Positions 32,891 to 62,407 of a DNA stretch of 64,000 nucleotides are shown piece after piece. The stretch is from an archaeon (GTDB taxonomy: Archaea; Nanobdellota; Nanobdellia; Pacearchaeales; GW2011-AR1), in NCBI GenBank assembly GCA_018693315.1, contig JABHLR010000005.1, positions 11,975-75,974 of the forward strand, given 5' to 3'. The translations under genes were made by a program, and so were the position numbers. The notes beneath the pieces are model-generated. The model was not told the origin of the DNA and searched no databases. It saw nothing but the letters and a program-made list of their open reading frames with translations. The first letter of the stretch is position 1; each line of letters starts with the position of its first letter.

Positions 32891-32897
32891 AGCTTGT

Positions 32898-45843: not shown

Positions 45844-45851
45844 GTTGATTA

Positions 45852-47794: not shown

Positions 47795-47813
47795 CTAAAC
47801 TAAATTTTTTATT

Positions 47814-49064: not shown

Positions 49065-49124
49065 ATATTTAGTAGATAAGTTGATTATATAAATTTTTAT
49101 AAATGGGTTTTTTGTTGGGATTTT

Positions 49125-49697
49125 ATGGCGAATACTGTTTTCCGGAAGGCGAAGGCTGGAGATCTTGAGGGGATTTTCGGATTAGCTAAAAGCTTGAAGG
49201 TTGATTATGACGCCCCTCAGAAAACTGGTTTTTTGGTTTATCCTTTGGATCGTAAGGGGTATGGGCGTAGGATTGATTCGTCTGATTTTTTTTATGTTGC
49301 TGATAATGGCGATGGTATTGTTGGGTTTTTGATGTGTTATGGTGGGGATACTGTGAAAACTTTGATGGAGAGTGGGGATTTGAACCATGAGGATTCTATT
49401 ATAAATGGAATATCTGAGGGGGAATATATTTTTGGGGATCAGGTAGGGGTTTCTTCTGGTGATGCTACGAAGGGAATTGGGACTGGGATGATGGAGAGAC
49501 TTTTTGAGGATATGAGGAAAAAGGGTGTTGGTGTTATGCGTGTTGGGATTTTACATGAGCCGGTTGAGAATGTTGCGTCGAAGACGTTTTGTGAGAAGTT
49601 GGGATTTGTTTATCAAAGCGAGGTGACTACGAGGGACGGACATGTGTGGGGTATTTATGAGTTGAGACCGTTTGGAGATGGTCGTGAAAAGAATTAA
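49125..49697 (+). CDS. GNAT-family N-acetyltransferase
   Basis: Motif A-like KGIGTGMMERLFEDMRKKG. Confidence 0.55.
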   Translation: MANTVFRKAKAGDLEGIFGLAKSLKVDYDAPQKTGFLVYPLDRKGYGRRIDSSDFFYVADNGDGIVGFLMCYGGDTVKTLMESGDLNHEDSIINGISEGEYIFGDQVGVSSGDATKGIGTGMMERLFEDMRKKGVGVMRVGILHEPVENVASKTFCEKLGFVYQSEVTTRDGHVWGIYELRPFGDGREKN

Positions 49698-49721
49698 AAA
49701 GTGAAATGAGTAATTGTTTTT

Positions 49722-50393
49722 ATGTGCTTTGCTCCGTATATATCTTTGGCGACGTTTGTTATAGAATTTTCACTGGCTTTGTTTTTTTTGCTTAGAGATC
49801 CGCGGGATAATCTCAATAGGATGCTTGCGTTGATTTCGTTTTTGCTTGGATTTTATCAGCTTAATGAGTTTTTGATTTGTACTACTGGGTTTAATTTGTT
49901 TTCTAGGCTCGCTGTGATTACTACTAGTCTTCTTCCGGTTTTGGCGGTATTTTTTGCGTTGATTGTTTTTAGAAAGAAGTTGAGGTTTTATTGGCGTATT
50001 TTAATTTGTGCGCCTGCGGTTTTTTTTGTTTTGATGTTTGCGATTTCGGATATTCTTAGAGAGTCTGCCACTTGTATGACGATATTTATTCAGTATCCTT
50101 ATTTTGGTTTGGTGTGGAGATTTTTGGGTTTGTATTATATTGTGTATTTGGTTGCGGCGTTGATTTTGTTTTATTTCGCGTCTTTGTCTGTTAAGACGAA
50201 AGAGGAGCGAAGGTTGTCTCACTTGGGTATGTTGGCGATGTTGATTTTTACTGTTCCGACTTTTGTGTTTTTGCTTTTCTTGCCGGTTTTTAATGTTCAG
50301 TTCCCTAGTGTTCTTTGTGAGTTTGGTTTGCTTTTGGCGATTGAGCTTATTGTTCTTATTTGGTATAAAGAAAAGCATAATTTGAAATATTAG
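49722..50393 (+). CDS. Polytopic membrane protein (6-7 TM), function unknown
   Basis: 223 aa, mostly hydrophobic. Confidence 0.5.
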   Translation: MCFAPYISLATFVIEFSLALFFLLRDPRDNLNRMLALISFLLGFYQLNEFLICTTGFNLFSRLAVITTSLLPVLAVFFALIVFRKKLRFYWRILICAPAVFFVLMFAISDILRESATCMTIFIQYPYFGLVWRFLGLYYIVYLVAALILFYFASLSVKTKEERRLSHLGMLAMLIFTVPTFVFLLFLPVFNVQFPSVLCEFGLLLAIELIVLIWYKEKHNLKY

Positions 50394-50433
50394 TCTTAGT
50401 TAGATTTAAAATATAGTTATTCTATTGATTGTT

Positions 50434-51819
50434 ATGAGTGAGAAAGCGTTTCCGGTGAAGATTGGTTTGGAGGTTCATGGGTATCTTGATACTCGGGAGA
50501 AGTTGTTTTGTATGTGTAAGACTGATAGTTTGAGCTCATCCGTTAATTCTAATATTTGTCCGATTTGTACGGGGACTCCTGGTTCGAAGCCGATGGCTGT
50601 TAATGCTGCGGCTGTTGATAAGTTGCTTGAGATTGCTTTGGTTTTTGGGTCTAAGATTAACTATAAGGATTTGATTTGGCAGAGGAAGCATTATGATTGG
50701 GCGGATAATCCTAAGGGGTATCAGACGACGATTTCGGGGGCTCATGCGACGACTAATGCGGTTGGAGGTAAGTTTAAGGGGATAAATATAACAGAGCTTC
50801 ATTTGGAGGAGGATCCGGCGCAGTGGAATCCTGGGACTGGGAAAATTGATTATAATAGATCGGGATTGCCGTTGGTTGAGATCGTTACGGAGCCTGAATT
50901 TAGTGATAGTGAGCAGGTTGTTGAGTGGTTGAAGGCTTTGGTTTTGAGTTTGAGTTATATTAAGGCGGTGAGGAAGAATGCGGGGATTAAGGTTGATGTT
51001 AATGTTTCGACTTATGGTGAGAGGGTTGAGATGAAGAATTTGAATTCCTTAGAGAAGATTCGGAAGGCTATTGAATATGAGATCGCGCGGCAGATTGAGG
51101 CGCATGATAATGGGGAGGTTCAGGAGAGGGAGACTTTGGCGTTTGATGAGAAGCTTGGGAAGACGATTAAGATGAGGAGTAAAGAAGGGGCTGCGGATTA
51201 TAGGTTTATTAGGGATCCTGATTTGCCGATGATTGTTGTGGATAAGAAACGTGTTGGTGAGTTGAAGAGGGGACTGCCTGAGATGCCTGAGAAGAAGTTG
51301 TCGAAGTTGTTGACTAAGTTTAAGGTTGGGGAGAAGGATGCTAAGATACTTACTCGAAATCTAGAGCTTGTCGAATTCTTCGAGAAGCTCGTGGAATTTG
51401 GAGTAGACCCGGGGAGGTACATGTCTTGGATTACGATTGAGTTGTTGAGGGTTTTGAATTATAATAAGAAGTCGCTTGAAGATGAGGATGTTGAGGTTAA
51501 ACCTGAGCATTTGGCGGAGTTGATTAAGGTGGTTGCTGCTGGTGAGATTACTGTTTTGAAGGGGAAGCAGATTATGAATGATATGATTCCGAAGTCGTTT
51601 AGTTTGAAGGATCATAAGGGGGAGATATCTAGTATTGATGAGAGTGCGATAGAGAATCTTTGTCAACAGGTAATTGATGAGAATTTGAAGGTGGTGACCG
51701 AGTATAAAGGTGGGAAGGATGCTAGCTTGAATTATTTAATTGGGCAGGTTATGAGGCTGAGTGAGAGGCGGGCTGATTTTAAGGTCGCTGGGGATTGTTT
51801 GAAGAGGTTGATAGGATGA
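50434..51819 (+). CDS. gatB: Asp/Glu-tRNA amidotransferase subunit B
   Basis: GatB N-terminus VKIGLEVHGYLDT...LFCMC...CPICTGTPG and the C-terminal YqeY-like tail. ATG at 50434. Confidence 0.9.
   Translation: MSEKAFPVKIGLEVHGYLDTREKLFCMCKTDSLSSSVNSNICPICTGTPGSKPMAVNAAAVDKLLEIALVFGSKINYKDLIWQRKHYDWADNPKGYQTTISGAHATTNAVGGKFKGINITELHLEEDPAQWNPGTGKIDYNRSGLPLVEIVTEPEFSDSEQVVEWLKALVLSLSYIKAVRKNAGIKVDVNVSTYGERVEMKNLNSLEKIRKAIEYEIARQIEAHDNGEVQERETLAFDEKLGKTIKMRSKEGAADYRFIRDPDLPMIVVDKKRVGELKRGLPEMPEKKLSKLLTKFKVGEKDAKILTRNLELVEFFEKLVEFGVDPGRYMSWITIELLRVLNYNKKSLEDEDVEVKPEHLAELIKVVAAGEITVLKGKQIMNDMIPKSFSLKDHKGEISSIDESAIENLCQQVIDENLKVVTEYKGGKDASLNYLIGQVMRLSERRADFKVAGDCLKRLIG
51746..51816 (+). repeat. gatB 3' terminal segment; source copy of two downstream partial duplicates
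   Basis: caggttatgaggctgagtgagaggcgggctgattttaaggtcgctggggattgtttgaagaggttgatagg. Confidence 0.7.
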
Positions 51820-52061
51820 AAAGGTGGGCGAAGGTTTTGTTGGTGATTGCGATTGTTTGGATTGTTTTATCTGTTTTTCTTTCTTTTTATTTGTGCAGAG
51901 CTGTAGATAAAAATGTGGCTTGTATGCAGGAGGGCTATTGTCCTGTTAGGAATAACTGTCATTTTGTTGATATGCTTTTGTGGTCTTTTGTTTTAGATAT
52001 TCCTGCGTGGATAATGTTTATTGTTGTGGCTATTTTGGGAAGAAGTAAGGGAAAGAAATAA
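51816..52061 (+). CDS. Small membrane protein (81 aa); start overlaps the gatB stop (ATGA)
   Basis: MKRWAKVLLVIAIVWIVLSVFLSFYL... with two TM segments. Confidence 0.4.
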   Translation: MKRWAKVLLVIAIVWIVLSVFLSFYLCRAVDKNVACMQEGYCPVRNNCHFVDMLLWSFVLDIPAWIMFIVVAILGRSKGKK

Positions 52062-52096
52062 TTCTGTATTAAATTAAAAGGAAAGTAAAGAGAACC

Positions 52097-52330
52097 TTGG
52101 TTCTTTTTGTTGTGGAGCGTAGCGATTACATGTGGTGTGGTGGTGGTGTTGAGGGGATGGGGAGATTGGATAGTCTTTCAGAGAAAGAGATTGATGAGTT
52201 GGCGAAGATTATGGATGTTGGGTTTCTTCAGGATGATTTAGATAGGGATGATAAGATTCTTGTTTTGTCTTCAGAGGCTGAAGAGAAAATTAATGATGGG
52301 TTGAAGAAACTTGGTGGGGGCTCGAAATAA
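52097..52330 (+). CDS. Hypothetical acidic protein (77 aa)
   Basis: ORF only. Its 5' region contains one copy of the GAGCGTAGCGATTACATGTGG repeat. Confidence 0.3.
   Translation: MVLFVVERSDYMWCGGGVEGMGRLDSLSEKEIDELAKIMDVGFLQDDLDRDDKILVLSSEAEEKINDGLKKLGGGSK
52114..52154 (+). repeat. Direct repeat GGAGCGTAGCGATTACATGTGGTGTGGTGGTGGTGTTGAGG; partner at 53859-53917
   Basis: The second copy contains an internal triplication of the GAGCGATTA(C/T)ATGTGG core. Confidence 0.6.
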
Positions 52331-52331
52331 T

Positions 52332-52367
52332 GGTTATGAGGTTGAGTGAGAGAAGGGCTGATTTTAA
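52332..52367 (+). repeat. Partial copy of the gatB 3' end (32 of 36 nt match 51748-51783)
   Basis: ggttatgaggttgagtgagagaagggctgattttaa. Confidence 0.6.
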
Positions 52368-52411
52368 ACAGGCGACGGAAATTATAAAAAGGTTGTTGGG
52401 GGATAAATAAG

Positions 52412-52609
52412 ATGACTAGTGATAGAATAAGTGGTAAAGGGTTAGGTGATTTTGCCCTAGCTGAGGTTGATGCAGCTGATGCAGCTTCTGGTGATTCTTA
52501 TCGCGCATCTATGGGGAGTGATATATGGGGTGTTAGTAATAATACTGGTGCGTCTAGTGAATCTGTTTTGAGTTATGCGGCTAGCTTGGTGGATCAAGAC
52601 GATGTTTGA
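52412..52609 (+). CDS. Hypothetical small protein (65 aa)
   Basis: ORF only. Confidence 0.2.
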   Translation: MTSDRISGKGLGDFALAEVDAADAASGDSYRASMGSDIWGVSNNTGASSESVLSYAASLVDQDDV

Positions 52610-52645
52610 TTTTAAGGTTGCTGGGGATTGTTTGAAGAGGTTGAT
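52607..52645 (+). repeat. Second partial copy of the gatB 3' end (38 of 39 nt match 51773-51811), directly before the HNH gene
   Basis: tgattttaaggttgctggggattgtttgaagaggttgat. Confidence 0.65.
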
Positions 52646-52647
52646 TA

Positions 52648-53427
52648 ATGGTTAATTATGTTGATGAGAATGGTTATAAGAGAGGAAAAATAAAACATTC
52701 AGATTTAATTCACAGACAGATTGCATATGAATTTATTTATAAAAAAAATAAAGGAAAATATTCTAAACCTTTTTCTTCGTATATTGTTCATCATATAGAT
52801 GGCGATAAGAAAAATAATGATATAAGCAATTTGCAAATTATGACTCAGAAGAAACATGAAAAAGTTCATGGGATTATAAGAACAAAAAAAGAAAGAGACT
52901 TATTTGAATTTGAGGAGAAGATTAGAAAGAAAAAGATTCATCCATTAAATGCTGAGTCAATCTCTAAAATAATAAAACAAAACAAAATTTCAAGAAGTAA
53001 TTTGGAGAGAGTTTCAAAATTAAAGAACGTAAAGAAAGCTGAAAAAAAGAAAAGGAATAAAAGAAGGAAGATGTTTTTTGGTTTGATTGTTTTGTTTGTC
53101 GTTTTGTTTGGAATTTTTATTTTTAATGGAGAAGAGGTTAGTCAGAATGCGAATCAGGTTGTTAAGCAAGTTGAAGAAGTTGAACCTTATGAGATTTTAA
53201 TAGATAAATATACAATGATTATAAAAAATAATCAAGACGAAGATATTAATTTGACAATTGTTTATCAAAGATATTCTAAGTGGTTTGGGATAGATGAGGT
53301 AAAAGAGGTGGATGTAGTATTGCTTCCGAATGAAGAGAGGAAAATTGTTGATGAGGGATTTTCTTCAAATAGTGGATGTTCTACTTCTCCGTGTCAATTA
53401 ATTCTAAAAGATGTTATAGTCAACTAA
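52648..53427 (+). CDS. HNH endonuclease-domain protein with a C-terminal TM segment
   Basis: HNH motif HHIDGDKKNNDISNLQIMTQKKHEKVH. Lys-rich linker, then TM FFGLIVLFVVLFGIFIF. Low-GC, A-rich composition. Confidence 0.65.
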   Translation: MVNYVDENGYKRGKIKHSDLIHRQIAYEFIYKKNKGKYSKPFSSYIVHHIDGDKKNNDISNLQIMTQKKHEKVHGIIRTKKERDLFEFEEKIRKKKIHPLNAESISKIIKQNKISRSNLERVSKLKNVKKAEKKKRNKRRKMFFGLIVLFVVLFGIFIFNGEEVSQNANQVVKQVEEVEPYEILIDKYTMIIKNNQDEDINLTIVYQRYSKWFGIDEVKEVDVVLLPNEERKIVDEGFSSNSGCSTSPCQLILKDVIVN

Positions 53428-53816
53428 TGGGAATTATAGAAATTATCGAAAATGCTCCTGCTTGGAAGAAGTGGCTGGGCGCGTCATCTCTCATATTTAT
53501 AATAGCTTTTTTAATTGTTGTTTCAGTTTTTGGAGGGAATGAGGTGGTGACTCTTCCGTCAGATGTTGCAGAAATAAGGCAGAATGCTACAGAATTAGTT
53601 GTCGAGGAAACTGTAAGTGCAGGGGGTGAGATAGCGGGTGCGTTTGCAGATGCAGGAAAAGAAATGGCAAAAACAGTTGATGATCCAATTCTTAGTGCAC
53701 AAATTATTTTTTTAATGTGGCTTTTGGGGGTTTTACTTGCATTTGCTCTGTTTTTAAAAATGTTAGAGGTCGTGGGCATTGATATTGATGCTATTATTAA
53801 AAGTTTAAATAAATAA
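53427..53816 (+). CDS. Membrane protein (129 aa); start overlaps the HNH stop (TAATG)
   Basis: Two TM segments. Confidence 0.4.
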   Translation: MGIIEIIENAPAWKKWLGASSLIFIIAFLIVVSVFGGNEVVTLPSDVAEIRQNATELVVEETVSAGGEIAGAFADAGKEMAKTVDDPILSAQIIFLMWLLGVLLAFALFLKMLEVVGIDIDAIIKSLNK

Positions 53817-53858
53817 TTCTAAGTTACACGAGCGGAGCGATTGGTTGAATAATTTACG

Positions 53859-53917
53859 GGAGCGTAGCGATTACATGTGGAGGAGCGATTATATGTGGTG
53901 TGGTGTTGGTGTTGAGG
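53859..53917 (+). repeat. Direct repeat partner of 52114-52154
   Basis: gggagcgtagcgattacatgtggaggagcgattatatgtggtgtggtgttggtgttgagg. Confidence 0.6.
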
Positions 53918-54016
53918 CACTGCTGTAAGTACCCTCTGTGGAGGGCAGGATGGGAGAAGATTGTTGGGAGGCAGGGAGAGAGGAAGATTTTTAAGAGTGT
54001 GAATTTCTGAGATTGG

Positions 54017-54415
54017 ATGGAAAATAGAGCGTCGGAATATTTTGATAGTAAATTTCGGAAGTGTAAGCAGAGGATTAGGTTGGCTTTTGCTGGAGTTGTT
54101 CTTGGGACGGTTTGTTCTATTGGCGGGGTGATGCTTAATGGTGGAAAATTCTTGGCGCGAGATTCGGGGAAGAGTTTTGTTGAGAAGCGGGTTAGTGATT
54201 CGCTTGTGCTTGGCGGAGGTTTGTTGACTGCCTCTAGTATGGTTGGGGTGTTATTGTGTACTGCGAAGGATGATAAGCTGAAGAAGGAGAGGCGTGAGTT
54301 GGATAGACAGATGATTAAGGCTGATATTTATTCTAGGGAATTTGATCGTCGAGAAGAGATGTTGTCTGGTGGTAATAAGTATGGTGGGGTTAGGGATTTG
54401 TATAAGTGTAATTGA
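54017..54415 (+). CDS. Hypothetical membrane protein (132 aa)
   Basis: ORF with two TM-like segments. Confidence 0.35.
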   Translation: MENRASEYFDSKFRKCKQRIRLAFAGVVLGTVCSIGGVMLNGGKFLARDSGKSFVEKRVSDSLVLGGGLLTASSMVGVLLCTAKDDKLKKERRELDRQMIKADIYSREFDRREEMLSGGNKYGGVRDLYKCN

Positions 54416-54468
54416 GGTTTGGGGAGTTGGGGGATTAATTTTATATAGTTTAGAATGTTGGTGGATGT

Positions 54469-54849
54469 ATGAAGAAGTGGTTAGTAATTTTAGTTGTTTT
54501 AGTTGTTGTGATTTTTGCAGCTGCGCTTGTTTATATCTTTAATGAAGATGAGGTTGAATCAGATAAAGGGAGAGGTGTTTATTATCATGAGCAGGGGTTT
54601 GTTTTGGGTAGCTGTTTAGAGTGGGATGAATTTGACAATGGAGATTCTGGTGCAGGGACGGTTTACACAGAGTATTATCATAAGGAAGATGGTCTGATTG
54701 GAAAGTGTTGGTCTTATCATGGGCCTGGTTCTTCTGGTGGCGCGGGGACCGGTTGTGATACTGATGAGCTATTGGGAGATGCGATAGAAGAGAGTGCTCT
54801 TGGTGGGAAAAGGTTTCCAAAATATGATTGTGATATATATGAAGAATAA
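54469..54849 (+). CDS. Small secreted or anchored protein (126 aa)
   Basis: N-terminal MKKWLVILVVLVVVIFAAALVYIF. TATA ttttatatag 20 nt upstream. Confidence 0.45.
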   Translation: MKKWLVILVVLVVVIFAAALVYIFNEDEVESDKGRGVYYHEQGFVLGSCLEWDEFDNGDSGAGTVYTEYYHKEDGLIGKCWSYHGPGSSGGAGTGCDTDELLGDAIEESALGGKRFPKYDCDIYEE

Positions 54850-54879
54850 TTTTATATAGTTGTTGTGGGTTTTTATTGG

Positions 54880-55026
54880 ATGGCATGGGAATTGGATTTG
54901 AAGGAGAGATCCGGGGTTAATAGGAAACATGTTTATTCTGGAAGTAGGGAGAGTCCGGTTTATGAGTTGACTAAGGAGTGGGAAGAGAATCCGTTTAGGT
55001 TTACTTATTTTGGTAATGAGTGGTAG
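54880..55026 (+). CDS. Putative 48 aa protein (below track cutoff)
   Basis: ORF MAWELDLKERSG...FGNEW with tttatatag 21 nt upstream. Confidence 0.25.
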   Translation: MAWELDLKERSGVNRKHVYSGSRESPVYELTKEWEENPFRFTYFGNEW

Positions 55027-55079
55027 TGTCTATTCTGTAGTGCAATAATTTTTATAAAGTATTTTTTTGTGTTGTTTGG

Positions 55080-55373
55080 ATGAGTCGCGGTAATGAGCAA
55101 ACGTATGATTGTCCTGATTGTGGCGAGGAGGGTGCAACTTTGGATTTTGGTCTTGGTTGTTCTAAGGTGAATGAGTTTAACATATGTTCTGAAACTGGTG
55201 ATTACTGTCCTGTGTGGACGAGTTCTGAGGCTGCTGATGCGCGCGAGACTAAGGCGAGGGGGCTTGAGGGATCTGATTTTTTTGATGGAGATGGTTTGGG
55301 CGAAGACGCGGCTGAGGTTTTACGAGGGCTTGATGATGACGATGGTTATGGTAATCATTATGATATTGATTAG
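55080..55373 (+). CDS. Small acidic Cys-containing protein (97 aa)
   Basis: CPDCGEEG...CSETGDYCP then an Asp/Gly-rich tail. tttataaag upstream. Confidence 0.4.
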   Translation: MSRGNEQTYDCPDCGEEGATLDFGLGCSKVNEFNICSETGDYCPVWTSSEAADARETKARGLEGSDFFDGDGLGEDAAEVLRGLDDDDGYGNHYDID

Positions 55374-55380
55374 GGCGATT

Positions 55381-55390
55381 GTTTTATAAG
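55381..55390 (+). promoter_or_regulatory. TATA-like box gttttataag, 22 nt upstream of the topIB-like ATG
   Basis: Same TATA-to-ATG spacing as other genes in the window. Confidence 0.4.
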
Positions 55391-55411
55391 TGTTGGAGTT
55401 TTTGTTGGGGG

Positions 55412-56512
55412 ATGGAAGGAGATGAGATCGGTTCAGTTAGGATTCTTGCTAAGGGTTTGTCGACTGTTAGAAAAACTAAATCTGGATGGATGAAGGTTTA
55501 TGTTGATATTCCGAAGACGTTTGATGCGATAAAACTTTTTAAGAAAAATAATTATTTGAAGGCTTTGGTTGATTCCAAGGATTCGAAGTTTTTGAAGGGC
55601 GGGTTGAATGCGAAGGGGAAAGTTTTTGGGGATAGGGTGAATGTGCTTCCGAGTAAACATGAGTTAGATAAGGCGTTTTCGCTTTTCGCTGATGGTTTGG
55701 TGATTCATGATGAGTTGTCGAGTTCGCATTGGGATGTGATTTTTAGGAATCCGAATGGTAAGTATTCTTATTTGTATACTTTGGAAAAGAAGAAAAAAAG
55801 TAAGGCGAGGAAGTTTTCGGCTGTTGATAATTTTGAGAAGAATTTGGTTAAGATAAATCGGGCTGTGAATAAAGGGATTGTTGATGGTGATTTGATGGCT
55901 TTGGCGATGAGGACTTTGTTGCAAACTAGGATGAGAGTTGGTAGTGAGGTTTATTATAAAGCTGATGGACATAAGGGTTTGACGACGCTGAAGAAAGGTG
56001 ATGTGAAGATTTCTGGGAATAAAGTTACGTTTTCATTTATTGCTAAGGATGGCGTTCCCCAGGTTATTAGTGAGAGGTTTTCGAAGGAGTATGTTAAAAA
56101 TTTGAAGAGTGTTTTGAGAAAGTTGAAGAGTAATGGTTTTATTTTTGCGAAGGCTGGTCGGCCATTTAGAGATACGGATTTTAAGAAAGCGTTTGAGAAT
56201 TATTGTGGTGAGGAATTTTATCCGCATATTGTTAGGTCTCATTATGCTACGAAGAGGGCTGAGGATTTTTTGAAGAAGCACAAGAAGTCTAACAGGGATG
56301 AGGTTGAGAAATTGTTTGGGGATATTGCTGTGAAGTTGGGGCATAAGAAATTTTCGAAGGGCGAGTGGAAGACTGATTATTCTGCGACTGTTCATTATTA
56401 TATTAAGCCGAAGTTTGTTGATAGGATTTTGAAGAAAATGGAAGCTGGCGCCGCACGCGGCATACCCTCTAAGGAGGGAACTAAAGTTCCAGTTTTATCG
56501 GGCAAAGTTTAA
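55412..56512 (+). CDS. Type IB DNA topoisomerase, small poxvirus/bacterial-type (putative)
   Basis: Matches to conserved TopIB blocks: NPNGKYSYLY (cf. DxxGRxQYxY), TRMRVG...GLTTLKKGDVKISGNKVTFSFIAKDGV (cf. vaccinia IRFG...GLLTLKNKHIEIS...FVGKDKV with catalytic Lys), PHIVRSHYA (Arg), LGH...HYYIKP (cf. catalytic Tyr in Y-[IL]-x-P). About 366 aa. Confidence 0.6.
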   Translation: MEGDEIGSVRILAKGLSTVRKTKSGWMKVYVDIPKTFDAIKLFKKNNYLKALVDSKDSKFLKGGLNAKGKVFGDRVNVLPSKHELDKAFSLFADGLVIHDELSSSHWDVIFRNPNGKYSYLYTLEKKKKSKARKFSAVDNFEKNLVKINRAVNKGIVDGDLMALAMRTLLQTRMRVGSEVYYKADGHKGLTTLKKGDVKISGNKVTFSFIAKDGVPQVISERFSKEYVKNLKSVLRKLKSNGFIFAKAGRPFRDTDFKKAFENYCGEEFYPHIVRSHYATKRAEDFLKKHKKSNRDEVEKLFGDIAVKLGHKKFSKGEWKTDYSATVHYYIKPKFVDRILKKMEAGAARGIPSKEGTKVPVLSGKV

Positions 56513-56548
56513 GTAATTGTTTTTGTTTGATAATTTAGGAGGTGATGT

Positions 56549-56758
56549 ATGATGGAGTATTTTAATAAGAGGATAAAGAAGCTTGATGTTTGGGATATTG
56601 CTTTGACAAAGTTGAGTGTTTTGATTTTTGCTTTGTTTTTAGTTGGAGTTTGGCCCGCCCTTCGTGTTTGGGTTGATTCTAGAAATCCCTGGTGTTTTGT
56701 AGCTGCTTTTGTTATTGTTGTGGCTAGGCCGATTTATAGATTTTATTTGAAGAAATAA
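56549..56758 (+). CDS. Small membrane protein (69 aa)
   Basis: aggaggtgatgtATG context. Two TM segments. Confidence 0.35.
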   Translation: MMEYFNKRIKKLDVWDIALTKLSVLIFALFLVGVWPALRVWVDSRNPWCFVAAFVIVVARPIYRFYLKK

Positions 56759-56788
56759 TTTTATAAAGGAATTTGTATTGTTTATTTT

Positions 56789-56974
56789 ATGGTAAAGAAA
56801 AAAGAGGCGTGTTCTGTGAATGGCGGAGCTTGTCCATGCGGGGGTTTGATGGCGATTGTCATTATTGTTCTTGTTTGGATTTCGACGGCTATGTGGTCTA
56901 AGATTGTGATCACTATTGCTGCAGCTTTGATCCTTTTGTCTGCTGGTGCGTCTTCCTGTGGAAAGAAAAAGTAA
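56789..56974 (+). CDS. Small Cys-containing membrane protein (61 aa)
   Basis: ORF only. Confidence 0.25.
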   Translation: MVKKKEACSVNGGACPCGGLMAIVIIVLVWISTAMWSKIVITIAAALILLSAGASSCGKKK

Positions 56975-57014
56975 TTTTAAAAAAATAAAAAATTGCCAGA
57001 TGTTAGTCTGGACT

Positions 57015-57479
57015 TTATTCGGATTTAGCTTCTTCGGCGTCTTCTTTTGCTTCTTCAACTGTTTCGATCTTCTCTTCGCCTTCTTCAGCGTCTGAGTTAT
57101 CGTCTACAACTTCTGGAGCAGCTTCGTCGTCAAGTGCATCTTCAACATTGCTGTTGATTTCTGATGGGTTTGCTACTGGTGCTTCTGATGGTTCTGAGTT
57201 ATCCCTATCATTGTACCGTGGAGCATTGTCTCGTGGAACCATTGGTTTAGCCTCGCTAACTGTCAATGGTCGACCCTCGACTTCCTTCTTGTTCATTTCG
57301 TCGATGGCTTTTTGAGCAGCACCGTCGTCTGTGAATGTTACAAATCCGAATCCTTTGGATCTACCTGAGAATTTATCTTTGATTAGAACTGCTTCCTCAA
57401 TGTCGCCGTATGACGCAAAAAGTTCGCTCAATCCCTTGTCATCGATAGACCATGGTAGATTACCTACGTATAATTTCAT
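57015..57479 (-). CDS. RRM-domain RNA-binding protein with an acidic C-terminal tail
   Basis: RNP-2 LYVGNL and RNP-1 KGFGFVTF. C-terminal Asp/Glu-rich tail. Confidence 0.75.
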   Translation of the reverse strand: MKLYVGNLPWSIDDKGLSELFASYGDIEEAVLIKDKFSGRSKGFGFVTFTDDGAAQKAIDEMNKKEVEGRPLTVSEAKPMVPRDNAPRYNDRDNSEPSEAPVANPSEINSNVEDALDDEAAPEVVDDNSDAEEGEEKIETVEEAKEDAEEAKSE

Positions 57480-57585
57480 ATTTTCCTCCTGTGTTATTTA
57501 ATAATTTTAATAGAATTGTCATGATTGTTCTTGTTCTCGCTTTACATAATTTTATAGATTGAGGGTTTTTAAGGTTGTGGGTCGT

Positions 57586-58701
57586 TTAATGTGTGAACTC
57601 TAGGATTATTCCTGTGATGAAAATTATTGAGAGGATGATTATTAGGGTCCAGTTTATTGGAACTCGGATTTCTGGATCTTTTTTGTTCCGTTTGTTTGAT
57701 TTTGCTTTTCTTGCCATTAGCATTATTAGGATTCCTGTTAGTCCTCCTGAGATTACACCGCCGACACCTAGGATTAGTGCGAAGCCGACGAAATCGAATT
57801 GTGTCATGAAGATGTAGAGTGCTAATGGAACCATTGATGTTAGGAGGAATCTCATTTTTTTGCCGGTTTTGATGTCGAATTTGAATGTGTCGTTTAGGGA
57901 GAATGATAGGACGAAGTATGACGTGAGCATTGTGAAGATTCCGAGGATTGTCATTAGTGGGCCGAAAGATAGGGTTGCTACTTCAGTGATTGAGCTTCCT
58001 AGGACGCCGATGAATGTTGCGCTGAATATTACGTAAAGTAGGATTGGGATTAGACTTCCGATGATGATTGCTCTTTTTAGGTATTTTTCTTGGCCCTTGA
58101 TTTCTTGTCGTAGTTCTGGGATTGATGTGAAACCGAGTAGCGCGAACATTACTACACCGATGGGTATTGCGAAGTTTGGTGTGCTCCATGTCATTAGGTT
58201 TGATGTGTTGAGTTCTGGTGCGAATCTTGCGAAGATTCCTAGGATGATTGCTATGATTGCTATGACGCCCCATGTTTCGATTTTCTTTAAGCCCTTTAAT
58301 CCTTCTTTTAGCAATAGCGTCATGACGAGCCAGAATATGATTCCGAAAACTAGTGGGGGGATGTTGCCTGGGATTAGTTGTGCTAGGGACTGGCCTTCAC
58401 CGATTAGATAAGCCAGAAGTGCTGAGTAGATACCGAAGAGGACCGATATGAGCATTGCGTATTTCCCCCATTTGCCGAGGTATTTTTCTGCGTAGCCTGA
58501 GAGTTGGTGCTTGCCTCGGGTTCTTAATGTGATTTCTCCGAGTGCTAAGTTTACGAAAACCATTACTGCTCCAAGAACGATTAGCCAGAATATACCGACT
58601 AGGAAGCCTGATTTTGCGAAGACGTATGGGAGACCGAGGATTCCTGCTCCGATAATTGTTCCTGTAAGTGTGAATGTTGTTGCCCAGAATTTTTTGTTCA
58701 T
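57586..58701 (-). CDS. Amino acid permease (APC/HAAAP-like, about 11 TM)
   Basis: N-terminal GTIIGAGILGLP motif and polytopic hydrophobic profile. Confidence 0.65.
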   Translation of the reverse strand: MNKKFWATTFTLTGTIIGAGILGLPYVFAKSGFLVGIFWLIVLGAVMVFVNLALGEITLRTRGKHQLSGYAEKYLGKWGKYAMLISVLFGIYSALLAYLIGEGQSLAQLIPGNIPPLVFGIIFWLVMTLLLKEGLKGLKKIETWGVIAIIAIILGIFARFAPELNTSNLMTWSTPNFAIPIGVVMFALLGFTSIPELRQEIKGQEKYLKRAIIIGSLIPILLYVIFSATFIGVLGSSITEVATLSFGPLMTILGIFTMLTSYFVLSFSLNDTFKFDIKTGKKMRFLLTSMVPLALYIFMTQFDFVGFALILGVGGVISGGLTGILIMLMARKAKSNKRNKKDPEIRVPINWTLIIILSIIFITGIILEFTH

Positions 58702-58790
58702 TGTATCACCTTGATTGTATAGGGTGTTTCCTTTTTTATAGCTTACTACAATAATTTTTTTAAAGGGGTTAGGGTTGCTAATTGTCTAAG

Positions 58791-60575
58791 ATGGTGGATA
58801 TTATTGTGAATGAGAATTTTGAAGAGGATGCTTCTGAGTTGTTTGGAGATATCGAGAGCGGGAGCTTTGATTCGTCGGAGTTGTTTAAGTTGCAGATGGA
58901 TGCGCGGGAGATTTCTTCGGATTCGGAAATTGATGATTTGATTTCTTATGGGATGATTAAGAAAAATTTGGCTTATGATTTGCCGTACCAGAGGGAGGGT
59001 GCTTTGAGGTTATTGAAGGATTTGAATGCGACGGCTCTGTTGGCTGATGAGGTTGGTCTTGGGAAAACGATTACGACGGCGATGGTGATTAAGGAGGGTG
59101 TTGTTCGGGGGTTTTTGAAGAAAGTTGCGATTTTGTGTCCGCCGAGTTTGGTTGATCAGTGGGTTGCGGAGTTGAAGGAAAAGTTTGAGTTGGATTTTCA
59201 TATTGTTGAGTCGGTTGAGGATTGGGAGGAGCATGATTTTGTGATTGCGTCGATCGATAGGGTTAAGATTTTTGATAAGGTTAATAGTCGGTTTAAGCAT
59301 AAGGCGGCGCATGGGATTTCGTGGGATTTGGTTATTGTTGATGAGGCGCATAAGTTGAAAGAGCGGAATACTGTGAGGTGGCGGTTTGTTGATCGGTTGC
59401 GGAAGAAGAGGTTTTTGTTGTTGACAGCGACGCCGTTTCAGAATGATTTGGTTGAGTTGTATAATTTGTTGCATATTTTGAAGCGGGGGCATTTGGGGAC
59501 GATGAAGGAATTTCGGAAGAAGTTTTTGTATCGGGGGAATAAGAGGCATCCGTTGAATCCTGATGAGTTGAAGGAAAAGTTGGAGCAGGTGATGGTTAGG
59601 CGGAGGCGTGATGAGACTGGGATTAATTATAAAAAAAGGATTCCGAAGATTGTGACGATTGAGATGACGCCGCAGGAAAAGACGATTTATGACAATACTG
59701 TTAGGTTGTTGAAGGAGAATTATTTTAGGGCGGACGGTCGTGAGATTAATGGGGCGTTGATTGTGTTTGCGATTTTGCCTAAAGTGACTAGTAGTTCTAA
59801 GTCTGCGATTGAGAGTTTGACTAAGATTGTTGAGGGCGATGTTTATAGTGATGGGACGAAGGATTTTGCGCAGGGAATTTTGGATGATTATGCGACGTTG
59901 AATAAGGATTCGAAAATTGAGAAGCTTGTTGAGTTAGTTGAGGAGATTCGGAATAGATCTGATGATGAGAAAATTTTGATTTATACGCGGCATCCGACGA
60001 CTTTGAAATATATTGTTGAGAAATTGGAGCCGTTTGGCTTGAAGATTATTGAGTTTATGGGTGGGCTGACTAGAGAGGAGAAGTCTGAGAAGATTGAGTC
60101 GTTTAAGAGGGGCGAGGCGGATATTATGATTTCGACTGATTGTGGGGCCGAGGGTTTGAATTTTCAGTTTTGTCGGAATTTGATTAATTATGATTTGCCA
60201 TGGAATCCGATGAGTGTTGAGCAGAGGATTGGGCGGTTGGATAGGATTGGGCAGGAGCGGGATATGTATATTTATTCGTTTGCGACGAAGGGGACGATGG
60301 AAGAGCACGTGGTTGATTTGATTATTAATAAGATGTGTTGCGTTGGCTTGGTGATTGGGGAGTTGCCGATTATTTTATTTAATTTGGGTTTGGATGGTTC
60401 GGGGAAAAGTGGGAAGAATAAGATTGAGGAGAAGTTGATGGCGTCGTTTATTGAAGGGAAGGGGAATTTGGATTTTTTTGCGAGGGGAGTTGATGAGATT
60501 GCTGACGAGATTGCTTTGGGGATGAAGGATTATGAGAAGGAGAAGGTTCATAATAAGAAGTTTTTTGATGAGTAG
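58791..60575 (+). CDS. SNF2-family helicase/ATPase
   Basis: Motif I GLGKT, motif II VIVDEAHKLK, LLLTATPFQN, helicase-C motifs (STDCGAEGLNFQ, QRIGRLDRIGQ). ATG at 58791. Confidence 0.8.
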   Translation: MVDIIVNENFEEDASELFGDIESGSFDSSELFKLQMDAREISSDSEIDDLISYGMIKKNLAYDLPYQREGALRLLKDLNATALLADEVGLGKTITTAMVIKEGVVRGFLKKVAILCPPSLVDQWVAELKEKFELDFHIVESVEDWEEHDFVIASIDRVKIFDKVNSRFKHKAAHGISWDLVIVDEAHKLKERNTVRWRFVDRLRKKRFLLLTATPFQNDLVELYNLLHILKRGHLGTMKEFRKKFLYRGNKRHPLNPDELKEKLEQVMVRRRRDETGINYKKRIPKIVTIEMTPQEKTIYDNTVRLLKENYFRADGREINGALIVFAILPKVTSSSKSAIESLTKIVEGDVYSDGTKDFAQGILDDYATLNKDSKIEKLVELVEEIRNRSDDEKILIYTRHPTTLKYIVEKLEPFGLKIIEFMGGLTREEKSEKIESFKRGEADIMISTDCGAEGLNFQFCRNLINYDLPWNPMSVEQRIGRLDRIGQERDMYIYSFATKGTMEEHVVDLIINKMCCVGLVIGELPIILFNLGLDGSGKSGKNKIEEKLMASFIEGKGNLDFFARGVDEIADEIALGMKDYEKEKVHNKKFFDE

Positions 60576-60605
60576 ATTTAAATAATTGAATTGTGTTTGT
60601 GATGT

Positions 60606-60965
60606 ATGGCGAAGAAAGAGGGTAAAAAAGAGAGGGAAGAGGAGTGGAGTAGGCTTTCTCAGAAACTTAAAGAATTGAGGTTTGAGGATTCTCCGGCTAA
60701 ACGGAAAGTAATTCTTGACGAGGCTATTGCGTCTGAAGATGATAGACTTATGGCAGATGCCTTTTTTTATCTGGGGAATAGTGGTAAGGATTATTCTGTG
60801 AAGTTAAAATATCTTGAGGATGCTAGGGCTTTGTTTAAGAAGACGAATCAGCCGTATTATGCGAATTCGACTTGGACCAGGATACAAATGCTTCAGCAAG
60901 AGGAGAGGCAGAGGCGTCGTCCGCGTTGGAAGAAGATGTTGTTTCCTTTTAGGGCTGCGGCTTAG
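60606..60965 (+). CDS. Hypothetical charged protein (119 aa)
   Basis: ORF lying between the SNF2 gene and the CxxC-rich gene. Confidence 0.35.
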   Translation: MAKKEGKKEREEEWSRLSQKLKELRFEDSPAKRKVILDEAIASEDDRLMADAFFYLGNSGKDYSVKLKYLEDARALFKKTNQPYYANSTWTRIQMLQQEERQRRRPRWKKMLFPFRAAA

Positions 60966-61012
60966 TTTTTTATCACAATAATATTCTTAAAGGGGCTTGC
61001 CGATTTTTTCTG

Positions 61013-62407
61013 ATGTCGAATCAAATAGAAAAGTTTGTGATGGGGTTTTTTGAGAACCTGAAGTGTGGCGTTTCTTTAGAGGATGGTGTTTTGGTCGTTG
61101 AGAATGTCCCGAAGGCTTTTGAGGATTTGTATGGGAAAGTTGCGCCGTATAGATTTTGTTTTGTCGCGGGAATGAAGAATTGTGAGTTTGTTGGGAAGGG
61201 TAGTGTTCTGTTGGCTGCGATGACGAAATTTTTGAAGGGGGCCGGGAAGACGACTTTGTTGAAGATAGATTTTGATGTTGACCCGATGAAGGAAATTGAT
61301 AAGGTTTTGAGTTTGAAGAATTGTGAGATTGATAGTTTGGTTAAGAAATATAAGAATAGTTTTTTCTCGAGGTTTACTTTTATGACAACGTTTAGATATT
61401 TGAATGAGGCGGAACAGATTGTGAATGAGGTTTATGTTCATGATGGGAAAGTTGTCGACGGTGATTTGAGTGGGTATAAGGTTTTGGAGGGCGAGAGTGA
61501 TGCGGTTTCTGAGGATAGTGTGAAGCGGGATTATGATATTGCGAAGGATGTTTTGAAGGGGGTGTTGGAGGCGAAGACTGCGGAGATTGGTGAGAGTTTG
61601 GGGGAGAAGGCTGGGGTTGAGATTGAAAGGATTCGGGCGCATTATGAAAATTTGATGGGGGAGCTTGGTGGGGATTTGGCTGGGGCGTTGAAAAAAATTA
61701 AGGAAGTTGAGTTAGAGTTGAGAAATGCCGAAGATGAAGATAGGGATGTTTTGAGGGCGAGACTGGAGAGATTGAGGAAGGGGCTTGTGAAGATTGGGGA
61801 TGATGAGGCGAGGGATAAGATTTTGAAGGAGCAGGAGTTTACGATTAAGGATGCGATGCATAAGCACAGTTTGAATATTGATAATAAGTTGGTGAATACG
61901 ACTGTGATTTATTATCCTGTTTTTAGCTTTAATTTGTTTCTAAAAGGGGATTCTTCTGGGAGATTTGTTGAGATGAATTATGATCCTTTAACTAAGACTT
62001 TGAATAAGTTGGTTTGTGAATCTTGTGGGAAGGATATTGTGAGGTTGAATTTGTGTTCGGCTGGGCATATTAGTTGTGATGATTGTTTGGAGAAGTGCGG
62101 GGAGTGCGGGAAAGGATTTTGTGGGAAGTGTTTGAAGCGAAGTTGTAGTTCTTGTGGGAAATTGCTCTGTAAGGGTTGTGCGAAGATGTGTATGGGGTGT
62201 GGTAAGCATGTTTGTGGGAATCATATGAGGCGGGATTGTGTTTCTGGGGATGATCGGTGCGTTAGTTGTTTGCGGGCGTGTTTGAGGTGTCATGGTTTGT
62301 CGAGTCCGAAATATTTTGGTGAGGCTTTGGATGGATCGAAGGTTTGCCAGAAATGTTTGGGTGCTGAGAAAAGGGGTAATGTTTTGAAGGATGTTTTTAG
62401 GGATTAG
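61013..62407 (+). CDS. Hypothetical protein with a coiled-coil middle and a C-terminal array of about 9 CxxC pairs
   Basis: C-terminus CESCGK...CDDCLEKCGECGKGFCGKCLKRSCSSCGKLLCKGCAKMCMGCGKHVCGNH...CVSCLRACLRCHG...CQKC. Confidence 0.5.
   Translation: MSNQIEKFVMGFFENLKCGVSLEDGVLVVENVPKAFEDLYGKVAPYRFCFVAGMKNCEFVGKGSVLLAAMTKFLKGAGKTTLLKIDFDVDPMKEIDKVLSLKNCEIDSLVKKYKNSFFSRFTFMTTFRYLNEAEQIVNEVYVHDGKVVDGDLSGYKVLEGESDAVSEDSVKRDYDIAKDVLKGVLEAKTAEIGESLGEKAGVEIERIRAHYENLMGELGGDLAGALKKIKEVELELRNAEDEDRDVLRARLERLRKGLVKIGDDEARDKILKEQEFTIKDAMHKHSLNIDNKLVNTTVIYYPVFSFNLFLKGDSSGRFVEMNYDPLTKTLNKLVCESCGKDIVRLNLCSAGHISCDDCLEKCGECGKGFCGKCLKRSCSSCGKLLCKGCAKMCMGCGKHVCGNHMRRDCVSGDDRCVSCLRACLRCHGLSSPKYFGEALDGSKVCQKCLGAEKRGNVLKDVFRD

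What the first reader, a model, noticed from the sequence alone, without database searches (positions are those of the whole stretch)
55412..56512. Small poxvirus/bacterial-type topoisomerase IB in an archaeal genome, inside the mobile-like region
Block-by-block similarity to vaccinia-type TopIB (GKYSYLY; R..G..GLTTLK...FIAKDGV; HIVRSHYA; LGH...YYIKP) in a roughly 366 aa protein with its own TATA box. In archaea, TopIB has been described essentially only in Thaumarchaeota, and there as the long eukaryote-like form. A short viral or bacterial-type TopIB would most likely come from a virus, plasmid or integrated element. TopIB shares the tyrosine-recombinase fold, so a site-specific recombination role also needs excluding.
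Basis: partly seen in the sequence, partly recalled or inferred. Interest (0 to 1): 0.7.

Follow-up and report, generated by a model that had tools for sequence, protein, structure and literature searches.

The report
Short topoisomerase IB conserved across DPANN archaea
The gene is a real, compact type IB DNA topoisomerase, an enzyme that relaxes twisted DNA; it is not cargo of a virus or plasmid but belongs to a distinct family found in the chromosomes of at least 180 species of tiny DPANN archaea, a group for which I found no published description of this enzyme.

Summary
Window 55412-56512 (+) encodes a 366-aa protein that passes the Pfam Topoisom_I cut-off. Its confident AlphaFold model matches every solved TopIB far better than any tyrosine recombinase. 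The catalytic pentad R175-K212-R275-H311-Y330 is invariant in 78 of 78 relatives. A TATA box lies exactly 29 nt upstream of the ATG, the spacing this genome uses for leaderless genes.

The enzyme is short, but it is neither the poxvirus nor the bacterial subtype. It belongs to a tight, 100%-bootstrap clade with its own N-terminal region. That clade has His rather than the Asn of Deinococcus-type bacterial enzymes, and a family-specific 19-21-residue spacer between His and Tyr. The spacer is 9-10 residues in other short forms and 63-99 in the long archaeal form.

Relatives occur in at least 180 species-representative DPANN genomes, including complete chromosomes, among housekeeping genes. None was found in IMG/VR, phage records or PHROGs. 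No att-like repeats or integrase flank the gene. Only the stretch upstream (HNH endonuclease, small ORFs, local repeats) looks mobile.

Most likely this is a housekeeping swivelase that relaxes supercoils. In the literature I could search, archaeal TopIB appears only in the long eukaryote-like form.

The parts
55383..55389 (+). TATA box (TTTATAA) of the TopIB promoter; the transcript is probably leaderless
   Evidence: The box starts 29 nt before the ATG at 55412. Of 99 TTTATA sites in the window, 19 have an ATG at exactly +29, and the 5' end of tRNA-Asn lies at the same distance. TTTATAA occurs 54 times against 21.9 expected. A role as promoter is inferred from this pattern, not measured.
55412..56512 (+). 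Coding sequence of the 366-aa type IB topoisomerase, stop codon included
   Evidence: ORF; start agrees with homologues; Pfam PF01028 E 6e-13; model pLDDT 91.6; TopIB fold matches.
55412..55561 (+). Family-specific N-terminal extension (about aa 1-50): three short strands and a helix
   Evidence: Secondary structure from the model. Conserved within the family, with R10 invariant and W26 nearly so. No Pfam hit. Lies outside every profile alignment to other TopIB groups. Function unknown.
55568..55777 (+). N-terminal beta-sheet (cap-like) DNA-binding domain (about aa 53-122), ending in the GKYSYLY strand
55781..56455 (+). Catalytic domain (aa 124-348)
   Evidence: Pfam PF01028 covers aa 127-312; helices and strands from the model; profile alignments to Caldiarchaeum, Deinococcus and variola enzymes.
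55934..55936 (+). Codon of Arg175 (first Arg of the pentad, MRVG)
   Evidence: Aligned with the Arg of bacterial, thaumarchaeal and phage TopIB; 78/78 conserved; codon read.
56045..56047 (+). Codon of Lys212 (AKDGV)
56234..56236 (+). Codon of Arg275 (HIVRSHYAT)
56342..56344 (+). Codon of His311 (LGHKK)
   Evidence: The Azospirillum-type bacterial enzymes have Asn at this position.
56345..56398 (+). Family-specific spacer between His311 and Tyr330 (KKFSKGEWKTDYSATVHY), predicted to contain a beta-hairpin
   Evidence: His-to-Tyr distance is 19-21 in the DPANN family, 9-10 in other short TopIB and 63-99 in the long thaumarchaeal form. Strands 312-315 and 318-321 come from the model.
56399..56401 (+). 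Codon of Tyr330, the predicted nucleophile (YIKP)
   Evidence: Aligned with the Tyr of the Y-[IVL]-x-P motif in all groups; 78/78 conserved; codon read.
56456..56509 (+). C-terminal tail (aa 349-366) peculiar to this organism, predicted disordered
   Evidence: Absent from all 16 aligned homologues; pLDDT below 50 for residues 350-366.

Best explanation
The gene encodes an active, stand-alone type IB DNA topoisomerase that serves the archaeal chromosome as a housekeeping swivelase.

Inferred mechanism, by homology with vaccinia, Deinococcus and human enzymes:
- The N-terminal beta-sheet domain and the catalytic domain clamp duplex DNA. Tyr120 and Tyr122 of the GKYSYLY strand lie against the groove.
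- Tyr330 attacks one strand and forms a 3'-phosphotyrosyl link.
- Arg175, Arg275 and His311 stabilise the transition state. Lys212 protonates the leaving 5'-oxygen.
- The free 5'-OH end swivels round the intact strand, relaxing positive or negative supercoils without ATP or Mg2+. The nick is then resealed.

The gene is transcribed from its own TATA box as a leaderless mRNA. It belongs to a distinct TopIB subfamily that appears to be inherited vertically within DPANN archaea (labelled Woese-, Pace-, Aenigmat-, Nano-, Nanohal- and Iainarchaeota). It is not recent cargo of a mobile element.

Shown here: family membership, fold, conservation of the active site, distribution and genomic context. 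Inferred: the enzymatic activity, the promoter use and the cellular role.
For: - Pfam PF01028 passes its cut-off.
- A profile of 62 relatives hits Caldiarchaeum TopIB at 3.7e-15, Deinococcus at 3.9e-12 and variola at 1.2e-9.
- The model has pLDDT 91.6 and pTM 0.83.
- The pentad R-K-R-H-Y aligns with that of every TopIB group and is invariant in 78/78 species genomes.
- At least 180 species-representative genomes carry a relative, including the complete chromosomes OY970338.1 and CP070804.1.
- Neighbours are housekeeping genes and none is fixed; the commonest neighbour family occurs in 14 of 81 loci.
- The order GatB-TopIB-RRM-permease is kept in the nearest species, at 64% protein identity.
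- In the family tree, sequences labelled Pace-, Aenigmat- or Nanohal- largely group together.
- The TATA box lies at the genome's canonical -29 position.
- No relative was found in IMG/VR, phage records or PHROGs.
Against: - There is no biochemical or expression evidence.
- The family sits on the longest internal branch of the TopIB tree. It also carries an unexplained N-terminal extension and a His-Tyr insertion, so its specificity or role may have shifted.
- Vaccinia TopIB can resolve Holliday junctions and catalyse site-specific recombination in vitro (my own knowledge). Fold and pentad alone therefore cannot exclude such a side activity.
- Taxon labels of metagenome-assembled genomes are rough, so vertical inheritance is suggested, not proven.
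- The best viral structural matches are jumbo-phage topoisomerases. An ancient viral origin of the whole family stays open.
Confidence: 0.85

Rival explanations
1. The gene is recently acquired cargo of a virus, plasmid or integrated element. On this view it serves the replication or transcription of that element rather than the host chromosome.
For: An HNH_3 endonuclease with phage-like relatives lies 2 kb upstream. The stretch between gatB and the TopIB gene holds small ORFs without known relatives and local repeats, including three copies of the last 69 nt of gatB. This stretch differs from the nearest species. The best viral structural matches are jumbo-phage topoisomerases.
Against: - The gene keeps its position between GatB and RRM/permease in the nearest species.
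- Relatives occur in at least 180 DPANN species genomes in varied housekeeping contexts.
- No relative was found in 2.9 million IMG/VR contigs, 50,697 phage records or PHROGs. The only plasmid hit is an ordinary bacterial TopIB at E 8e-4.
- No att-like direct repeats, integrase or tRNA target bracket the gene.
- GC content around the gene (0.39-0.41) is like the rest of the window.
Confidence: 0.04
2. The protein is a site-specific recombinase or resolvase (tyrosine-recombinase-like, or a telomere or dimer resolvase) rather than a relaxing enzyme.
Against: - This protein gives no PF00589 hit at E <= 1.
- The active-site pattern is the TopIB pentad with the TopIB-type Y-I-x-P tyrosine motif.
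- The N-terminal domain carries the TopIB GKYSYLY strand, not a recombinase core-binding domain.
- No paired target repeats lie near the gene.
Confidence: 0.03
3. This rival concerns origin only. The family entered an early DPANN ancestor once, from a large DNA virus or a bacterium, and has been inherited vertically since. On this view it is not an ancestral archaeal enzyme.
For: In the literature I could read, archaeal TopIB is described only for Thaum-/Aig-/Bathyarchaeota and some Asgard archaea, and only as the long form. Jumbo-phage topoisomerases (PaBG, Motura) give the best structural matches over about 335 columns, with E 4e-17 to 1e-14. A related phage enzyme (PhiXhv-12) has an intermediate His-Tyr spacer of 15 and an hhalign E of 1.4e-11 to the family profile. 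Villain et al. 2022 infer that DPANN lineages acquired DNA gyrase by transfer.
Against: No supported sister group appears in the tree. Sequence identity to phage enzymes is under 30% and tblastn finds nothing significant. Profile scores to the thaumarchaeal form (120) exceed those to bacterial (84) or phage (91) enzymes.
Confidence: 0.3

Closest known systems
Poxvirus TopIB (vaccinia/variola, 314 aa; PDB 2h7f, 1a41)
   Different: Only 16% identity. The DPANN enzyme has about 50 extra N-terminal residues and a His-Tyr spacer of 19. Pox enzymes have 9 by residue numbering (H265, Y274; my own knowledge), as do all other short forms measured. The N-terminal domain gives no Pfam hit. CCCTT specificity is unknown for the DPANN enzyme.
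Bacterial TopIB (Deinococcus radiodurans 2f4q/3m4a; Azospirillum-type, PF21338 + PF01028)
   Different: The sampled bacterial enzymes carry the PF21338 N-terminal domain, which this protein does not hit. They have Asn instead of His (LGNTP) and a spacer of 9. This is the lowest of the three profile-profile scores: 84, E 9e-11.
Long eukaryote-like archaeal TopIB (Thaum-/Aigarchaeota; Caldiarchaeum 6z01; PF02919 + PF01028 + PF14370)
   Same: Best profile hits: hmmsearch 3.7e-15 and hhalign score 120, E 1e-15. It has His in the pentad, similar MRVG[DN]E, GKD[SG]V and R-[ST]-[HY]-x-AT motifs, an H-K-[KR] motif after His, and Y-I-x-P at the tyrosine.
   Different: The long form has a large cap (PF02919), a coiled-coil linker giving a His-Tyr distance of 63-99, and PF14370. 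The solved Caldiarchaeum chain is 539 aa. The DPANN enzyme has none of these features.
Jumbo-phage topoisomerases (Pseudomonas phage PaBG, Achromobacter phage Motura, Xanthomonas phage PhiXhv-12; 540-670 aa)
   Same: Best structural matches among viral proteins: E 4e-17 to 1e-14 over 332-338 columns, TM 0.61-0.63 on the query. For PhiXhv-12: PF01028 hit, the R-K-R-H-Y pentad, an intermediate His-Tyr spacer of 15 with a similar GH-F-N-K-G-E start, and hhalign E 1.4e-11.
   Different: These proteins are much longer, with about 300 residues before the catalytic domain in PhiXhv-12. Identity is 18-20% structurally. There is no significant tblastn match, and the hosts are bacteria.

Membership tests
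Type IB DNA topoisomerase (superfamily level) | Catalytic-core profile (Pfam PF01028) above the gathering score | tested here: met
   49.1 bits against a cut-off of 23.7, E 6.2e-13, residues 127-312.
Type IB DNA topoisomerase (superfamily level) | Catalytic pentad Arg-Lys-Arg-His/Asn-Tyr in the right order and alignment | tested here: met
   R175, K212, R275, H311 and Y330 align with the pentad of bacterial, thaumarchaeal, phage and other TopIB. They are invariant in 78/78 relatives.
Type IB DNA topoisomerase (superfamily level) | TopIB fold of the catalytic domain plus an N-terminal DNA-clamping domain, closer to TopIB than to tyrosine recombinases | tested here: met
Type IB DNA topoisomerase (superfamily level) | ATP- and Mg-independent relaxation of positive and negative supercoils through a 3'-phosphotyrosyl intermediate | not testable with these tools
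   Needs purified protein.
Poxvirus-type TopIB | Poxvirus N-terminal domain profile and the short His-Tyr distance of 9 | tested here: not met
   No Pfam family other than PF01028 covers the N-terminal region at E <= 1. The spacer is 19, against 9-10 in every other short TopIB measured. The clade is separate with 100% bootstrap.
Poxvirus-type TopIB | Cleavage specificity for 5'-(C/T)CCTT | not testable with these tools
   Needs cleavage-site mapping.
Bacterial-type TopIB (Deinococcus/Azospirillum type) | Bacterial N-terminal domain PF21338 | tested here: not met
   All 120 listed bacterial relatives carry PF21338 + PF01028. This protein and all 120 listed family members carry PF01028 without PF21338.
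Bacterial-type TopIB (Deinococcus/Azospirillum type) | Asn in place of His in the pentad (LGNTP) | tested here: not met
   His311 is present in 78/78 relatives. Asn is invariant in the bacterial alignment.
Eukaryote-like long TopIB (Thaumarchaeota, Aigarchaeota, eukaryotes) | Large cap domain (PF02919), linker between catalytic core and C-terminal tyrosine domain, and PF14370 | tested here: not met
   No PF02919 or PF14370 hit. His-Tyr distance is 19 against 63-99. Length is 366 aa against 539 aa for the Caldiarchaeum enzyme.
DPANN short TopIB family (defined here) | High score on the family profile, with a gap to all other TopIB | tested here: met
   Full-length members score 272-512 bits on the family HMM. 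Every other TopIB representative scores at most 91. The query is 46-87% identical to members. The clade has 100% bootstrap.
Tyrosine recombinase / integrase (XerC/D, SSV, pNOB8 types) | Phage_integrase profile (PF00589), a recombinase core-binding domain, and paired target sites | tested here: not met
Integrated mobile element or provirus cargo | Element borders (att repeats, tRNA target), element genes next to it, absence from related genomes, relatives in viruses or plasmids | tested here: not met
   No bracketing repeats. The nearest tRNAs lie 21 kb upstream and 6 kb downstream. The position is conserved in the nearest species. No viral or plasmid relatives of the family were found.

The most novel reading that the evidence does not exclude
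The DPANN enzyme may be a surviving 'minimal' archaeal TopIB related to the stem of the long archaeal/eukaryotic TOP1. It is linker-less and has a small cap, but shares His and the H-K-[KR] and Y-I-x-P motifs with the long form. If so, TopIB was present in early Archaea, not only in Thaumarchaeota and their relatives, and the long eukaryote-like form arose from such a short enzyme by gaining a linker and enlarging its cap. The family's 19-21-residue hairpin between His and Tyr would then mark the very site where the linker later grew.
Probability: 0.15. Interest if true: 0.75.

Novelty: new variant of a known kind. Interest (0 to 1): 0.55.

Why it matters
Reviews and primary papers on archaeal topoisomerases treat TopIB as a hallmark of Thaumarchaeota and their relatives, with some Asgard archaea, and only in the long eukaryote-like form. 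The Garnier 2021 table lists no type IB enzyme for DPANN.

A conserved short TopIB in at least 180 DPANN species changes the picture in three ways:
- It adds a fourth lineage to TopIB evolution, beside the pox/NCLDV, bacterial and long eukaryote-like forms.
- It offers a small, easily expressed enzyme with a new N-terminal module and a new insertion next to the catalytic tyrosine.

There is also an annotation gap. This protein hits no NCBIfam model near its cut-off. Family members carry the names 'hypothetical protein', 'tyrosine-type recombinase/integrase' or 'DNA topoisomerase IB', depending on the source.

Tried and rejected
- The exact-sequence look-up with the 377-aa TTG-start version found nothing; the 366-aa ATG version was found on 18 contigs.
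- The NCBIfam scan gave only noise.
- The afdb50 fold library was not available.
- A first bootstrap run with Biopython's distance calculator timed out. I redid it with my own numpy distances.
- The listing of cluster members gave almost no names for divergent representatives.
- I looked for a conserved operon partner. The SNF2 helicase downstream recurs near the TopIB gene in 7 loci as a close homologue (63-84% identity), but at varying distance and orientation, and mostly among loci whose TopIB sequences group with the Pacearchaeota-labelled ones. I read this as local synteny, not a functional pair.
- A 22-nt, 82%-complementary AT-rich inverted repeat (53704-53725 / 56967-56988) brackets the gene and its small neighbours. 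I judged it to be chance: it is low-complexity and one of only 4 weak pairs in 34 kb.
- Weak Sso7d-like Foldseek matches to the N-terminal strands (E 1.3-2.1) are not significant.
- Polymorphism could not be used to test selection, because the three fetched copies of the locus are 100% identical to the window.

Full report
**Observation**

The ORF listing shows an ORF at 55379..56512 on the + strand. The first in-frame ATG is at 55412 and gives 366 aa. That start agrees with the closest homologue, P0001 (87% identity, starting MKGDE), and with 15 other relatives.

Pfam gives PF01028 (Topoisom_I catalytic core) at E 6.2e-13 and 49.1 bits, against a gathering score of 23.7. A single-sequence search of PDB sequences finds:
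- Deinococcus TopIB at 6e-7
- variola TopIB at 1.3e-4
- the 539-aa Caldiarchaeum TopIB at 1.6e-4
- the vaccinia catalytic fragment at 1.8e-3.

A profile of 62 relatives raises these to 3.7e-15, 3.9e-12, 1.2e-9 and 4e-9.

**Structure and active site**

An AlphaFold2 model built on 62 relatives has mean pLDDT 91.6 and pTM 0.83. Only the last 17 residues are disordered.

In a joint alignment, R175, K212, R275, H311 and Y330 fall on the pentad of every TopIB group sampled. They are invariant in 78 of 78 full-length relatives from species-representative genomes. The GKYSYLY strand aligns with variola GRRQYFY residues 66-72. Its two tyrosines, Y120 and Y122, are conserved in 77/78 and 78/78 relatives. 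Takahashi et al. 2022 (PMC8748870) name Y72 as a DNA-contacting residue of the viral enzyme. The recombinase alternative is therefore excluded as far as sequence and fold can exclude it.

**Host and promoter**

The window is a DPANN archaeal chromosome. Its genes include RtcB, the archaeal CCA-adding enzyme, TrmB, FttA/aCPSF1, a proteasome subunit, FtsZ, GatDE, GatB, AspRS and OapC. The closest homologues are labelled Woese-, Pace-, Aenigmat- and Nanoarchaeota.

The exact protein is on 18 public contigs, among them a 220-kb ENA scaffold and JGI sample 3300004111. The three copies fetched are 100% identical to the window.

TTTATAA at 55383 starts exactly 29 nt before the ATG. Across the window, 19 of 99 TTTATA sites have an ATG at exactly +29, against 1-5 at other offsets, and the 5' end of tRNA-Asn lies at the same distance. 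The motif is also over-represented, 54 occurrences against 21.9 expected. The gene therefore most likely has its own promoter and a leaderless mRNA. This is an inference from pattern, not a measurement.

**Is it on a mobile element?**

The evidence argues against it:
- A pattern scan of one genome per GTDB species found 180 genomes encoding a relative. The 80 best are 46-64% identical and include the complete chromosomes OY970338.1 (1.84 Mb) and CP070804.1 (742 kb).
- Clustering the ORFs within 5 kb of the gene in 81 loci shows no fixed partner. The commonest neighbour, a DEAD-box helicase, occurs in 14 loci. Others include SerRS, PPDK, adenylate kinase and a ribosomal protein.
- The nearest species (L004, 64% identity) keeps the order GatB - TopIB - RRM protein - permease, while the small genes in between differ.
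- There is no relative in IMG/VR, none among 50,697 phage records at E <= 1e-3 and no PHROG family. The only plasmid hit is an ordinary bacterial TopIB on an Azospirillum replicon at 8e-4.
- No att-like repeats bracket the gene. GC content is unremarkable.

What does look mobile lies upstream, at 51.7-53.9 kb. An HNH_3 endonuclease there has phage-like relatives. The last 69 nt of gatB are repeated twice more, the last copy abutting the HNH start. A 22-41-nt repeat occurs at 52114 and 53859. The TopIB gene lies outside these repeats.

**Which kind of TopIB?**

The protein is short and has no linker, so by architecture it resembles the viral and bacterial forms. It is nevertheless not a member of either.

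Domain content differs between groups:
- The bacterial relatives sampled all carry PF21338 + PF01028.
- The thaumarchaeal ones carry PF02919 + PF01028 + PF14370.
- This family carries PF01028 only.

The family forms a separate, tight group:
- Locally built HMMs separate it sharply. Full-length members score 272-512 bits on the family model; every other TopIB representative scores at most 91.
- An exhaustive phmmer search of 1.84 billion representatives finds 422 proteins at E <= 1e-3 but only 18 at E <= 1e-30. The family is tight and separated from the rest by a gap.
- A neighbour-joining tree on 243 catalytic-domain columns recovers the family with 100% bootstrap on the longest internal branch. 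It has no supported sister group. This tree is crude, and the deep topology should not be trusted.

Profile-profile scores are:

| Comparison | hhalign score | E-value |
|---|---|---|
| DPANN vs thaumarchaeal | 120 | 1e-15 |
| DPANN vs bacterial | 84 | 9e-11 |
| Bacterial vs thaumarchaeal | 124 | 1.3e-16 |

The family is thus roughly equidistant from both, and if anything nearer the long archaeal form in its core.

Its distinguishing features are:
- a conserved extension of about 50 residues at the N-terminus
- His rather than the Asn of Deinococcus/Azospirillum-type enzymes
- a His-to-Tyr distance of 19-21 residues, predicted to form a hairpin.

That distance is 9-10 in all other short forms sampled and 63-99 in the long thaumarchaeal form.

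The best viral structural matches are jumbo-phage topoisomerases (PaBG, Motura; E 4e-17 to 1e-14 over about 335 columns). A related Xanthomonas phage enzyme has PF01028, a spacer of 15 and hhalign E 1.4e-11. Sequence identity is nonetheless too low for tblastn to detect.

**Mechanism**

By homology, the enzyme should act in four steps:
1. It clamps duplex DNA.
2. It cleaves one strand through Tyr330, forming a 3'-phosphotyrosyl link.
3. It lets the 5'-OH end swivel, which relaxes supercoils of either sign without cofactors.
4. It reseals the nick.

This rests on established knowledge of vaccinia, Deinococcus and human enzymes and on the conserved pentad. It was not tested here.

Villain et al. 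2022 (PMC9348778) report DNA gyrase in most Woese- and Pacearchaeota. They describe Topo IB and Topo VI as the only archaeal enzymes, other than gyrase, known to relax positive supercoils. A TopIB in these lineages is therefore a plausible extra relaxase for replication and transcription. Whether it balances gyrase is speculation. Genomes labelled Aenigmatarchaeota carry the TopIB, while the paper names gyrase only in other DPANN phyla.

**Comparison with the literature**

- Garnier et al. 2021 (PMC8185306) list no type IB enzyme for DPANN.
- Dahmane et al. 2016 (PMC4824112) treat topIb as a thaumarchaeal hallmark and say the short version occurs in some bacteria and viruses.
- Takahashi et al. 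2022 place archaeal TopIB in Bathy-/Aig-/Thaumarchaeota and some Asgard archaea, all of the long form.
- Six full-text searches found no paper that describes a DPANN TopIB.

The library does not hold subscription-only papers or every supplementary table, so a mention in passing somewhere cannot be excluded. The sequences themselves are public, and JGI labels some of them 'DNA topoisomerase IB'.

**Verdict**

This is a real TopIB with high confidence, and most likely a chromosomal housekeeping swivelase. It belongs to a distinct, DPANN-wide short subfamily that the topoisomerase literature I could search does not describe. The 'pox/bacterial type' label and the mobile-element origin do not.

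I rate it a new variant of a known kind, with interest 0.55. It is noteworthy for topoisomerase evolution and DPANN biology, but the enzyme class and chemistry are well known.

Noticed in passing
whole window; examples 55383/55412, 55051/55080, 56760/56789, 49096/49125, 36432/36461, 33207/33236, 32063/32092, 34116/34146 (tRNA-Asn): There is a fixed 29-nt distance from the first T of TTTATA to the ATG: 19 of 99 sites, against 1-5 at other offsets. The 5' end of tRNA-Asn lies at the same distance. This suggests mostly leaderless transcription, and it helps to fix true start codons, e.g. 631, 7381, 12884 and 44117 instead of the upstream TTG/GTG starts.
   Followed up: partly
whole window (1-64000): Strand asymmetry is extreme: G 17213 against C 8007 (GC skew 0.37, locally up to 0.58) and T 23165 against A 15615 on the + strand. 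The skew stays positive even where genes lie on the - strand (37-49 kb). The median |GC skew| of 60 other DPANN loci is 0.077, and the nearest species (L004) is not among the 15 most skewed loci. Unexplained.
   Followed up: partly
window 51747-53917: The last 69 nt of gatB (51747-51815) recur at 52332-52400 (74% identity) and 52580-52648 (71%). The third copy abuts the start of an HNH_3 endonuclease gene (52648-53427) that has phage-like relatives. A 22-41-nt repeat occurs at 52114-52154 and 53859-53917 (94-100%). This looks like the scar of a homing-endonuclease-type insertion downstream of gatB.
   Followed up: partly
L001 versus L002 (both identical to window 45412-60180): Public gene calls differ on identical DNA. 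One pipeline calls GatD (416 aa), the full 461-aa GatB_N-domain gene beside it (window 46077-47462) and the amino-acid permease on the - strand. The other replaces GatD and the permease with strings of small + strand ORFs and shortens that GatB_N gene to 308 aa. The G+T-rich + strand probably yields long spurious ORFs.
   Followed up: partly
window 58782-62407: An SNF2-family helicase (58782-60575) is followed by a 119-aa ORF and a 464-aa protein with a Cys-rich C-terminal part and no Pfam hit (61013-62407). The helicase and the 464-aa protein recur together within 10 kb of the TopIB gene in 6 other loci.
   Followed up: partly
window 16711-17079: A gene for the origin-associated protein OapC (Pfam E 6e-28) suggests a replication origin may be near. 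Even so, the GC skew does not change sign anywhere in the window.
   Followed up: no
window 28000-33000: This is a low-GC stretch (0.30-0.33 against about 0.40) with four consecutive ORFs (28102-31455) that have no Pfam hit. By composition it is a better candidate for foreign DNA than the TopIB region.
   Followed up: no
window 56538-56758: A 69-aa ORF with long hydrophobic stretches (56549-56758) starts 36 nt after the TopIB stop. A GGAGGTGA Shine-Dalgarno-like sequence precedes it instead of a TATA box at -29, so it may be co-transcribed with the TopIB gene. A T-rich run (56519-56531) lies in between. The nearest species has a 690-aa ORF at that position instead.
   Followed up: no
window 1-20476: The window opens with a run of large ORFs carrying GLUG, Laminin_G_3/ConA-like, PKD, beta-helix/NosD and PEP-CTERM domains, which look like secreted or surface proteins (616-2436, 6529-7200, 7315-15565, 17099-20476). 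Such proteins might mediate attachment to a host cell.
   Followed up: no
family-wide (P0010, P0031 and others); L009, L017, L036, L057: Database names for the family are inconsistent: 'hypothetical protein', 'tyrosine-type recombinase/integrase' and 'DNA topoisomerase IB'. This protein hits no NCBIfam model near its cut-off. Several genomes that carry the gene have implausible labels (Paceibacterota, Campylobacterales, Planctomycetia, Methanosarcinales), which suggests mislabelled or misbinned assemblies.
   Followed up: no
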